Shown piece after piece: positions 42,336-42,753 of a stretch of DNA of 64,000 bases. The notes below the pieces were generated by a model. That model had not been told where the DNA came from. It searched no databases and saw only the letters and a program-made list of their open reading frames with translations. Within the stretch, counting starts at the first letter, position 1. Every line of letters starts with the position of its first letter. The DNA is from Nanobdellota archaeon (GTDB taxonomy: Archaea > Nanobdellota > Nanobdellia > CSSed11-243R1), in assembly GCA_021163365.1 (NCBI GenBank), contig JAGGWW010000006.1:4123-68122 (forward strand), read 5' to 3'. The position numbers were made by a program, and so were the translations under genes.

Positions 42336-42381
42336 GACCCTTTCCGCTGACGCGCAAAGCGTCTACGGAAAGTCCTAAATA
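42336..42381 (+). other. 16S insertion 1 (putative intron) splitting universal GGATTAGATACCC
   Basis: GACCCTTTCCGCTGACGCGCAAAGCGTCTACGGAAAGTCCTAAAT lies between GGATTAGATA and CCCGGGTAGTCC. It is near-identical to the tRNA-Asn and tRNA-Ile D-loop insertions. Boundaries +/- 2 nt. Confidence 0.6.
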
Positions 42382-42708
42382 CCCGGGTAGTCCCAGCTGT
42401 AAACGCTGCCTGTTAGGTGTTGCACATCGTTCGACGGTGTGCAGTGCCGAAGCGAAGGCATTAAACAGGCCGCCTGGGGAGTACGGTCGCAAGGCTGAAT
42501 TCCGGTTGGTTTGCCTCGGGTGCAAGCTGACCGTGACAGCTTACTTAAAGGAATAGGCGGGGGAGCACAACAAGGGGTGAAGCCTGCGGTTCAATTGGAT
42601 TCGACGCCAGGAATCTCACCAGGGCTGACAGCATGATGAAGGTCAGCCTGAAGGGCTTACCTGAAGCGCTGAGAGGTGGTGCATGGCCGCCGTCAGCTCG
42701 TACCGTGA

Positions 42709-42753
42709 CACCTTTCTTGGTAAGAAAGCTGTACCAAAGAAGGGTGCGGTAAA
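42709..42753 (+). other. 16S insertion 2 (putative intron) between CGTACCGTGA and GGCGTCC
   Basis: CACCTTTCTTGGTAAGAAAGCTGTACCAAAGAAGGGTGCGGTAAA contains hairpin CTTTCTT-GGT-AAGAAAG. Removing it restores the conserved archaeal sequence GTCAGCTCGTACCGTGAGGCGTCCTGTTAAGTC. Confidence 0.6.

What the first reader, a model, noticed from the sequence alone, without database searches (positions are those of the whole stretch)
42336..42753. Two mini-introns in 16S rRNA inside universally conserved single-stranded motifs
GGATTAGATA|...|CCCGGGTAGTCC and CGTACCGTGA|...|GGCGTCCTGTTAAGTC are each split by a ~45-nt hairpin element. Removal restores textbook archaeal 16S sequence. Archaeal 16S introns are normally hundreds of nt and often carry homing-endonuclease ORFs. 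Here they are ORF-less minimal hairpins of the same family as the tRNA introns. These sites also affect common primers and probes, since the 785F/805R target is split.
Basis: seen in the sequence. Interest (0 to 1): 0.7.

Follow-up and report, generated by a model that had tools for sequence, protein, structure and literature searches.

The report
Mini BHB introns in rRNA genes
The 16S rRNA gene of this small uncultured (DPANN-type) archaeon holds three hairpin introns of 43-46 bases, not two, and its 23S gene holds two more. They look like ordinary protein-spliced archaeal introns, but they share sequence with the organism's tRNA introns, and one 16S intron body is a near-identical copy of a tRNA intron body.

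Summary
Both reported insertions are real. The covariance model and intron-less relatives show that each interrupts an otherwise textbook 16S sequence.

Relatives show presence/absence exactly at the predicted junctions. They also show compensatory changes in the exon-intron helix. Ten archaea from several phyla carry a mini-intron at site 793.

Four of the five rRNA introns share an 'ACCUUUCUU..AAGAAAGC..AAAGAAGG' body with non-canonical tRNA introns in the window. The 16S-793 intron body is 34/35 identical to the D-loop intron of an unannotated tRNA-Asn.

Small ORF-less hairpin introns in 16S are already known from Thermoproteales. This is therefore a new member of a known kind (new sites, new lineage). 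The added point is apparent copying of intron bodies between tRNA and rRNA genes. Splicing itself is inferred, not observed.

The parts
41586..43234 (+). 16S rRNA gene (host gene), 1649 nt genomic and 1515 nt after removal of three introns
   Evidence: Rfam RF01959, 1455 bits, model positions 1-1478. Spliced length computed.
42335..42380 (+). 16S intron 1 (46 nt), between E. coli 793/794 in the 790 loop. Central helix is exon UUAG / intron CUAA; bulges are AU|A and AU|A; inner helix is GAC/GUC followed by CUUUCCG/CGGAAAG.
   Evidence: The site is empty in 10 relatives. The body is 34/35 identical to the tRNA-Asn D-loop intron.
42500..42542 (+). Central helix is GCUG/CAGC; bulges are AA|U and UU|A. 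No other copy exists in the window.
   Evidence: It is absent from L001 (94% identical 16S) and from all 11 further relatives.
42708..42752 (+). 16S intron 3 (45 nt), between E. coli 1079/1080. Central helix is ACCG/CGGU; bulges are UG|A and AA|A; the inner helix has 10 bp.
   Evidence: RNAalifold recovers helix-bulge-helix-bulge-helix with compensatory pairs.
47217..50361 (+). 23S rRNA gene (second host gene), unlinked from the 16S gene
   Evidence: Rfam RF02540, 2765 bits.
49825..49911 (+). 23S intron A (87 nt, near-palindromic long hairpin), between E. coli 2477/2478. Central helix is GCUC/GCGC with one U.C mismatch; the inner helix is 10 bp (CAACCUUUCU/AGAAAGGUUG).
49969..50015 (+). 23S intron B (47 nt), in a domain V hairpin loop after about E. 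coli 2534. Central helix is GCAG/CUGA (G.A plus 3 bp); the inner helix has 10 bp; the body is very similar to 16S intron 3.
37732..37908 (+). Unannotated tRNA-Asn(GUU) with two family introns, 37749-37791 (D loop) and 37838-37894 (T loop). The D-loop intron body matches the body of 16S intron 1.
   Evidence: ARAGORN finds a 77-nt tRNA-Asn only after both introns are removed.
13800..13981 (+). Unannotated tRNA-Pro(GGG) with two family introns, 13815-13862 (position 15/16, GUCU/GGGC) and 13904-13961 (position 53/54, CCCG/CGGG).
   Evidence: ARAGORN finds a 76-nt tRNA-Pro only after removal.
40453..40499 (+). Family intron in the T loop of an unannotated tRNA (probably Leu-UAA, about 40366-40513). 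Central helix is UUCA/UGAG; the inner helix has 11 bp.
18078..18124 (+). Family intron at the anticodon-loop position of an unannotated tRNA (probably Asp-GUC, 17983-18159).
   Evidence: One search is ambiguous, so the reconstruction is not unique.
41423..41458 (+). Copy of the family body in the 16S 5' leader. Its status is unresolved.

Best explanation
These are archaeal bulge-helix-bulge (BHB) introns in the rRNA genes of a DPANN archaeon, probably Aenigmatarchaeota. In the pre-rRNA, the four exon bases at -6..-3 pair with four bases near the 3' end of the intron. This produces a 4-bp helix flanked by two 3-nt bulges, with the intron's own hairpin on one side and an exon helix on the other. 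The tRNA-splicing endonuclease (EndA) cuts after the second base of each bulge. The RtcB-type ligase then joins the exons and circularises the intron, restoring the 790 loop, the 908 region and the 1079 hairpin. The introns are modular: one leading base, a hairpin body shared among sites, a 4-nt site-specific tail complementary to the local exon, and two final bases. The body family is shared with non-canonical tRNA introns in the same genome and has recently been copied between a tRNA gene and the 16S gene. What is shown: the insertions, the BHB geometry, the empty sites, the covariation and the sequence family. What is inferred: cleavage and ligation by EndA and RtcB, and the mode of copying.
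For: (1) Removing the inserts restores the Rfam consensus exactly. (2) All three 16S inserts show a perfect 4-bp central helix with 3-nt bulges in a single register. The two 23S inserts have one mismatch each. (3) In 12 relatives the sites are empty exactly at the predicted junctions. Intron 1 occurs only in the window and L001, intron 2 only in the window, and intron 3 in 4 of the 10 genes that span the site. (4) Covariation at site 1079: exon ACCG / intron CGGU versus exon GUCG / intron CGAU (C-G to U-A), and the first inner pair changes C-G to A-U. RNAalifold finds the motif de novo with 3 compensatory pairs. (5) Covariation at site 908: GCUG/CAGC, ACUG/CAGU and GGUG/CACC in three lineages. 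(6) At site 793, ten archaea with unrelated intron bodies keep CUAA or CUAG plus 2 nt. Of the inner-helix cells, 36/40 pair in register, against 9-20/40 when slid. (7) The same cleavage rule applied to family introns in tRNA genes yields canonical tRNA-Pro and tRNA-Asn, which ARAGORN cannot find unspliced. (8) The family link holds in cross-validation. An HMM built from tRNA copies finds the 16S and 23S introns (E = 0.004 and 0.018), and the reverse search finds tRNA copies (E = 1e-4 and 2.5e-3). The 16S intron 1 body is 34/35 identical to the tRNA-Asn D-loop intron body.
Against: There are no RNA data, so excision and exon ligation are not observed. No EndA or RtcB gene was found among the 40 window ORFs scanned; the genes presumably lie elsewhere in the genome. 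The exon helix outside the 3' bulge is weak. At site 793 there is an A.C mismatch before the h24 stem, and at site 1079 RNAalifold draws a 4-nt bulge. The AU-rich central helix of intron 1 is not part of the unconstrained minimum-energy fold. Both 23S introns have an imperfect central helix. The cleavage-position rule came from my memory of Marck & Grosjean 2003, although the empty sites and the tRNA reconstructions check it here.
Confidence: 0.87

Rival explanations
1. The endonuclease cuts at the BHB motifs but the exons are not rejoined, so the mature 16S and 23S rRNAs are fragmented. The pieces would be held together by base pairing and proteins, as with bacterial intervening sequences.
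For: Sequence alone cannot separate cleavage with ligation from cleavage without it. All BHB evidence fits both outcomes.
Against: Archaeal BHB substrates studied so far are ligated, both as exons and as circular introns or pre-rRNA circles; this is established knowledge, reviewed in PMC7714728 and PMC12918454, which appeared. The same intron family sits in tRNA D and T loops, where the exons must be joined to give a working tRNA. Breaks in the 790 loop and next to the peptidyl-transferase region would lie in functional single strands.
Confidence: 0.06
2. The inserts are lineage-specific expansion segments that stay in the mature rRNA.
For: DPANN and CPR rRNAs are known to carry unusual insertions. 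Each insert is a stable hairpin in a loop.
Against: The inserts interrupt universally conserved functional loops rather than variable helices. Their junctions keep a BHB with exon-intron covariation, which an expansion segment would not need. They are present or absent among close relatives. Their bodies match tRNA introns that must be removed.
Confidence: 0.04
3. The inserts are an assembly artefact, or the rRNA copy is a decaying pseudogene.
For: Metagenome assemblies can be chimeric in rRNA regions.
Against: The same introns occur at the same sites in independent assemblies from NCBI and JGI (L001, L124, L133). Outside the inserts the gene scores as a complete 16S, and the exons are conserved.
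Confidence: 0.01
4. The inserts are self-splicing group I or group II introns.
For: Group I introns do occur in archaeal rRNA genes (PMC6125680).
Against: At 43-87 nt they are far too short for a ribozyme core. Rfam finds no intron family in the window.
Confidence: 0.01

Closest known systems
Small (<50 nt) hairpin-forming BHB introns of Thermoproteales/Aigarchaeota 16S rRNA genes (Jay & Inskeep 2015, PMC4496867)
   Same: They are ORF-less, under 50 nt and form a single hairpin. They have a BHB at the exon-intron junctions, sit in or beside loops of the 16S rRNA, are patchily distributed among relatives and break 'universal' primer sites. Locus 908 is shared as a site.
   Different: The host is a mesophile-type, AT-rich (34% GC) DPANN archaeon, not a thermophilic crenarchaeon. 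Loci 793 and 1079 are not among their 13 loci (374, 548, 722, 781, 803, 901, 908, 919, 978, 1093, 1205, 1213, 1391). At 908 they list only endonuclease-coding or remnant introns, not hairpin introns. Here the intron body is shared with tRNA introns.
Non-canonical tRNA introns and tRNA intron transposition in Thermoproteales (Fujishima et al. 2010, as summarised in PMC4090602)
   Same: These are short BHB introns with similar sequences at different positions in different genes. A BHB is required at each new site. The mechanism of spread is unknown.
   Different: That work describes spread among tRNA genes only. Here the same body family occupies tRNA D-loop, T-loop and anticodon-loop sites and also 16S and 23S rRNA sites. 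One tRNA/16S pair is 34/35 identical.
Classical large archaeal rRNA introns with LAGLIDADG homing endonuclease ORFs (Pyrobaculum, Desulfurococcus, Aeropyrum)
   Same: They are BHB-bounded, removed by the splicing endonuclease and located in conserved rRNA regions.
   Different: Those are hundreds of nt long and carry their own DNA-level mobility gene. The introns here have no coding capacity.
BHB motifs in the processing stems flanking archaeal 16S and 23S rRNA
   Same: The same enzyme and motif are used, and both act on pre-rRNA.
   Different: Those motifs release and circularise whole rRNAs. The ones here lie inside the mature sequence and require exon ligation.

Membership tests
Archaeal BHB (endonuclease-spliced) intron | Exon-intron junctions lie in two 3-nt bulges separated by a 4-bp helix (hBHBh' or a relaxed form) | tested here: met
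   The three 16S introns have a perfect 4-bp helix and 3-nt bulges. The two 23S introns have one mismatch each.
Archaeal BHB (endonuclease-spliced) intron | Removal at the predicted sites restores the functional host RNA exactly | tested here: met
   The Rfam consensus is restored. Empty sites in relatives coincide with the predicted junctions. The same rule turns two undetectable genes into canonical tRNAs.
Archaeal BHB (endonuclease-spliced) intron | The motif is maintained by compensatory change between exon and intron | tested here: met
   Shown at site 1079, site 908 and the site 793 inner helix, where 36/40 cells pair in register against 9-20/40 when slid.
Archaeal BHB (endonuclease-spliced) intron | The genome encodes the splicing endonuclease EndA and an RtcB ligase | tested here: inconclusive
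   Neither was found among 40 window ORFs scanned with Pfam. The window is only 64 kb of the genome.
Archaeal BHB (endonuclease-spliced) intron | The intron is absent from mature RNA, and a circular intron is detectable | not testable with these tools
   No transcript data are available.
Small hairpin ('HP') 16S introns of Jay & Inskeep 2015 | Under 50 nt, no ORF, a single hairpin, and one of the 13 catalogued loci | tested here: not met
   Size, lack of ORF and hairpin shape are met (43-46 nt). Loci 793 and 1079 are not catalogued, and 908 is catalogued without hairpin-type members. These introns are the same kind at new sites.
Group I / group II self-splicing intron | A conserved ribozyme core detectable by covariance model | tested here: not met
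   No intron family appears among the 8 Rfam matches in the window. The length of 43-87 nt is too short.
Homing-endonuclease rRNA intron | An internal LAGLIDADG or other endonuclease ORF | tested here: not met
   The introns are 43-87 nt long and cannot hold such an ORF.

The most novel reading that the evidence does not exclude
The inserts belong to a non-autonomous, mobile mini-intron family. Its hairpin body moves, or is gene-converted, among stable-RNA genes of all classes (tRNA D, T and anticodon loops, 16S, 23S and the 16S leader). A 4-nt tail is matched to each target so that the host splicing endonuclease makes every insertion harmless. This would be direct evidence for exchange of BHB introns between tRNA and rRNA genes, and a tractable case for working out how ORF-less archaeal introns spread. 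The mini-intron at 16S site 793, present in Asgard, Nitrososphaerota and DPANN assemblies, would be a widespread intron locus that I did not find catalogued and that blinds 785F/806R-type primers.
Probability: 0.6. Interest if true: 0.7.

Novelty: new member of a known kind. Interest (0 to 1): 0.55.

Why it matters
There are three practical consequences. First, introns at 793/794 and 908/909 split the binding sites of the most widely used 16S primers (785F, 805R/806R, 907-926). The same organism also deviates at the 515F site (GTGGCAGCAGCC). Such lineages would therefore be missed or under-counted in amplicon surveys, and their 16S genes may be mis-aligned or flagged as chimeric. Second, annotation tools missed at least four multi-intron tRNA genes in this window, so tRNA complements of such genomes are underestimated. 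Third, there is an evolutionary point. A near-identical intron body in a tRNA gene and in the 16S gene, while the orthologous introns of a 94%-identical relative have diverged to 53-66%, shows recent copying among BHB introns of different host genes. How ORF-less archaeal introns are gained is an open question, and this lineage offers many recent events to analyse.

Tried and rejected
(1) A loose BHB scanner run over the rRNA genes gave 78 hits in the 16S gene alone. It does not discriminate in structured RNA and was used only to confirm the registers.

(2) The genome-collection scan with GGATTAGN{30,60}CCNGGTAGTCC was too unspecific. Most of the 120 loci were chance matches in bacteria, and only 8 were true 16S cases.

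(3) An exact-protein lookup of the gene next to the 16S gene found nothing. Relatives were reached through TopoVI-A homologues instead. L002 held no 16S gene.

(4) I looked for C/D-box features in the introns by eye. There is no C box, so a guide-RNA role was rejected.

(5) Neither RNase P RNA insertion has an acceptable BHB, so they are not counted as introns.

(6) Strict BHB registers could not be found for the canonical-position introns of tRNA-Tyr (17884-17981) and tRNA-Ala (46671-46784). They may be relaxed motifs.

(7) Brute-force intron combinations scored with ARAGORN for the tRNA at 17983-18159 gave many alternative solutions. That gene is only tentatively called tRNA-Asp.

(8) Pfam scans of 40 ORFs found no EndA or RtcB.

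(9) The literature searches listed in the full report found no description of 16S loci 793 or 1079, or of a BHB intron family shared by tRNA and rRNA genes. Tocchini-Valentini 2011 could not be read.

Full report
**Context.** The window has 34% G+C. It carries an archaeal 16S rRNA gene (41586..43234), an unlinked 23S rRNA gene (47217..50361), an RNase P RNA and several tRNAs. The topoisomerase VI-A gene 3.9 kb upstream of the 16S gene has its best named homologues in Candidatus Aenigmatarchaeota, at about 71-75% identity. The organism is therefore a DPANN archaeon, probably an aenigmatarchaeote.

**The observation.** The 16S match is 1649 nt against a 1478-position model. The covariance-model alignment of 42280-42900 shows three large insertions, not two:
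- 46 nt inside GGAUUAGAUA[..]CCGGGUAG;
- 43 nt inside GGCUGAA[..]CUUAAAGGAAU;
- 45 nt inside CGUACCGUG[..]GGCGUCCUGUUAAGUC.

Alignment to E. coli rrsH places them between positions 793/794, 908/909 and 1079/1080. The middle one was overlooked.

**Anatomy.** I applied the archaeal bulge-helix-bulge geometry as I recall it from Marck & Grosjean 2003. Reading 5' to 3', the order is exon helix, 4-nt helix strand, 3-nt bulge, intron hairpin, 4-nt helix strand, 3-nt bulge, exon helix. Cleavage falls after the second bulge base. The last six exon bases are then H(4)+2 and the last six intron bases are H'(4)+2.

The sequence leaves 4, 1 and 2 equivalent registers for the three inserts. In each case exactly one register gives four Watson-Crick pairs:
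- intron 1, 42335-42380: UUAG/CUAA;
- intron 2, 42500-42542: GCUG/CAGC;
- intron 3, 42708-42752: ACCG/CGGU.

In each, the intron hairpin begins right after the first intron base. The unconstrained minimum-energy folds of introns 2 and 3 already contain the helix, the 3-nt bulge and the hairpin. The AU-rich helix of intron 1 does not form on its own. My own estimate of the chance of three such registers is about 5e-7.

**Relatives.** A contig from GCA_024277205.1 (L001) is syntenic, and its 16S gene is 94% identical. It has intron 1 (47 nt, only 66% identical), lacks intron 2 precisely, and has intron 3 (93% identical). Eleven metagenomic relatives with 83-87% identical 16S genes all lack introns 1 and 2. 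L124 and L133 have intron 3, and six others lack it. Every empty site reads exactly as the predicted spliced junction.

L124 and L133 have exon GUCG where the window has ACCG, and their intron tail is CGAU instead of CGGU. This is a C-G to U-A compensation. The first pair of the inner helix changes from C-G to A-U. RNAalifold on the three distinct sequences predicts helix, bulge, 4-bp helix, bulge, helix de novo, with three compensatory pairs.

At site 908, three lineages show GCUG/CAGC, ACUG/CAGU and GGUG/CACC.

At site 793, ten archaea carry introns of 30-54 nt with unrelated bodies. They are the window, L001, a Hermodarchaeum (Asgard), a Nitrososphaerota MAG, four 'uncultured archaeon' MAGs and two other Aenigmatarchaeota. 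All the introns begin with A and end with CUAA or CUAG plus two bases. Their first four inner-helix pairs are canonical in 36 of 40 cells, against 9-20 of 40 when the 3' partner is slid by 1-4 positions. Pair types vary freely.

**The 23S gene.** Its alignment shows two more insertions in domain V:
- 87 nt (49825-49911, E. coli 2477/2478). It is a near-palindromic hairpin with central helix GCUC/GCGC, one U.C mismatch and a 10-bp inner helix.
- 47 nt (49969-50015, after about E. coli 2534). Its central helix is GCAG/CUGA (G.A plus 3 bp), also with a 10-bp inner helix.

The rest of the length excess of the 23S gene is small. Model positions 1383-2306 were not inspected directly, but the length budget (158 extra nt, 134 explained) leaves no room for another intron of this size.

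**One family with the tRNA introns.** Four of the five rRNA introns share a body of the form ACC(C)UUUCUU - 3 nt - AAGAAAGC - 4-6 nt - AAAGAAGG(G)U. A pattern scan and an nhmmer profile find further copies only on the + strand and only in or beside stable-RNA genes. The copies lie at 13819, 13907, 18010, 18082, 37842, 40456 and 41423 (the 16S leader).

Cross-validation supports the link. A profile built only from four tRNA-gene copies ranks 16S intron 3 (E = 0.004) and 23S intron B (E = 0.018) directly after its own members. A profile built only from rRNA introns finds tRNA copies at E = 1.3e-4 and 2.5e-3.

These copies are introns at non-canonical positions of tRNA genes that ARAGORN and Rfam missed. 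Removing 13815-13862 and 13904-13961 gives a canonical 76-nt tRNA-Pro(GGG). Removing 37749-37791 and 37838-37894 gives a 77-nt tRNA-Asn(GUU). Neither gene is detected unspliced. This is an independent check of the cleavage rule on the same intron family.

**Recent copying.** The body of 16S intron 1 is 34/35 identical to the D-loop intron of tRNA-Asn, while their last six bases differ to match the local exon. In L001 the orthologous introns have different bodies: 66% identity for the 16S site and 53% for the tRNA site, against about 95% for the exons. A body variant therefore spread between a tRNA site and the 16S site recently in the window's lineage. L001 also holds several copies of the 23S-intron-B type near its tRNA genes and just downstream of its 16S gene. 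Intron 2 has no other copy.

**Breadth.** Even the poorly designed genome scan turned up archaea with many 16S mini-inserts. L032 has seven, at about E. coli 522, 692, 727, 793, 866, 908 and 1360. L098 has five and L120 has three. Ten of the 17 inserts tested give a 4/4 central helix at the alignment-derived junction. The phenomenon is common in public assemblies.

**Mechanism.** What is shown: the insertions, their BHB geometry, exact empty sites, exon-intron covariation and homology to introns that must be removed from tRNAs. What is inferred from established knowledge of archaeal RNA splicing: EndA cleaves in the two bulges, RtcB ligates the exons and circularises the intron, and the mature rRNA lacks the inserts.

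The positions argue the same way. The inserts lie in the 790 loop, the 908 region, a conserved hairpin loop at 1079 and two domain V sites close to the peptidyl-transferase region. These are conserved functional elements, not variable helices.

I cannot say how the bodies are copied. DNA-level gene conversion among copies and RNA-level reverse splicing are both possible.

**Rivals.** Cleavage without ligation (fragmented rRNA) cannot be excluded from sequence. It is unlikely because the same family interrupts tRNA loops, where ligation is obligatory. Retained expansion segments would not need exon-intron covariation or a BHB. An artefact is excluded by independent assemblies. Ribozyme introns are excluded by size and by Rfam.

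Locus 908 is on their list, without hairpin-type members. Loci 793 and 1079 are not on it.

Sakai et al. 2022 (PMC8784108) state that 16S insertions had been reported only in Crenarchaeota, Aigarchaeota and Micrarchaeota. Transposition of short introns among tRNA genes is known from Thermoproteales (Fujishima 2010, as cited in PMC4090602). Very intron-rich tRNA sets are known in some Asgard genomes (PMC11291895).

In the open-access library I searched, I found no description of these two loci, of rRNA mini-introns in Aenigmatarchaeota, or of a BHB intron family shared by tRNA and rRNA genes. Subscription literature was not searchable.

**Verdict.** The feature is a new member of a known kind, with an interesting evolutionary twist.

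Noticed in passing
window 13800-13981, 17983-18159, 37732-37908, about 40366-40513: At least four tRNA genes were missed or only partly detected by ARAGORN and Rfam: Pro-GGG, probably Asp-GUC, Asn-GUU and probably Leu-UAA. Each carries one or two non-canonical introns of the same family. The tRNA complement of such genomes is under-annotated.
   Followed up: partly
window 41423-41458 (16S 5' leader): A copy of the intron body (CACCCTTCTTAAAAAGAAGCGTGCACGGAAGAAGGGTG) lies about 130 nt upstream of the 16S 5' end. It is flanked by a direct repeat GGAGTC..GGAGTC. I did not resolve whether it is a leader intron, a processing element or a dead copy.
   Followed up: partly
all family copies, e.g. window 42709-42746 and 49969-50010: The 5' pyrimidine arm (CUUUCUU) can pair with either a middle purine run (AAGAAAG, local hairpin) or the 3' purine run (AAAGAAGG, the BHB inner helix). 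Both runs co-vary in length with the arm (UUUU with AAAA). This may be a structural switch or a footprint of how the element is copied; it is unexplained.
   Followed up: no
window 43235-47216: The 16S and 23S genes are unlinked. They are separated by about 4 kb holding four protein genes (two without Pfam hits, a metallophosphoesterase and an HD-domain protein) and an intron-containing tRNA-Ala. No 5S rRNA was found in the window.
   Followed up: partly
window 53912-53935 and 54118-54153 (RNase P RNA): The RNase P RNA has two insertions relative to the Rfam model: a long P3 hairpin CCUUUUCUUUGCUAAAAGAAAAGG and a 36-nt hairpin near the 3' end. Both resemble the intron body in composition, but neither has an acceptable BHB.
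   Followed up: partly
window 17884-17981 (tRNA-Tyr) and 46671-46784 (tRNA-Ala): The anticodon-loop introns of these two tRNAs do not give a 4-bp central helix under the strict BHB rule. This suggests relaxed motifs and hence a broad-specificity endonuclease.
   Followed up: partly
window 42055-42080: The 515F primer site reads GGTGGCAGCAGCCGCGGTAATACC, with G where 515F expects Y. Together with the split 806R site, this means V4 primers would mismatch at both ends.
   Followed up: no
L032 875-2684, L098 4800-7300, L120 6700-7750, L061: Other uncultured archaea carry up to seven mini-inserts of 30-85 nt in a single 16S gene (E. coli about 265, 451, 506, 514, 522, 607, 692, 721, 727, 793, 866, 908, 912, 919, 1360). 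Most have a BHB-compatible junction, and L032's 908 intron has the same CCUUUUCUU..AAGAAAAGC body.
   Followed up: partly
window 38576-38771: This gene-free stretch is homologous to L001 12332-12619 and contains a 22-nt piece 91% identical to the body of 16S intron 1 (38640-38661). It is probably another intron-bearing RNA gene.
   Followed up: no
window 6161-7941: Adjacent genes for Ku (PF02735) and an ATP-dependent DNA ligase form a possible non-homologous end-joining pair, which is uncommon in archaea with small genomes.
   Followed up: no
window 41538-41585 and 43250-43310: The 16S flanks form a long processing stem (GUAGGAAGGCAACAA/UUGUUGCCUUCCUAC and AGGUUGUGC/GCACAACCU) with an 8+8-nt internal loop. 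The loop is only BHB-like (GUG/CAC), not canonical.
   Followed up: no
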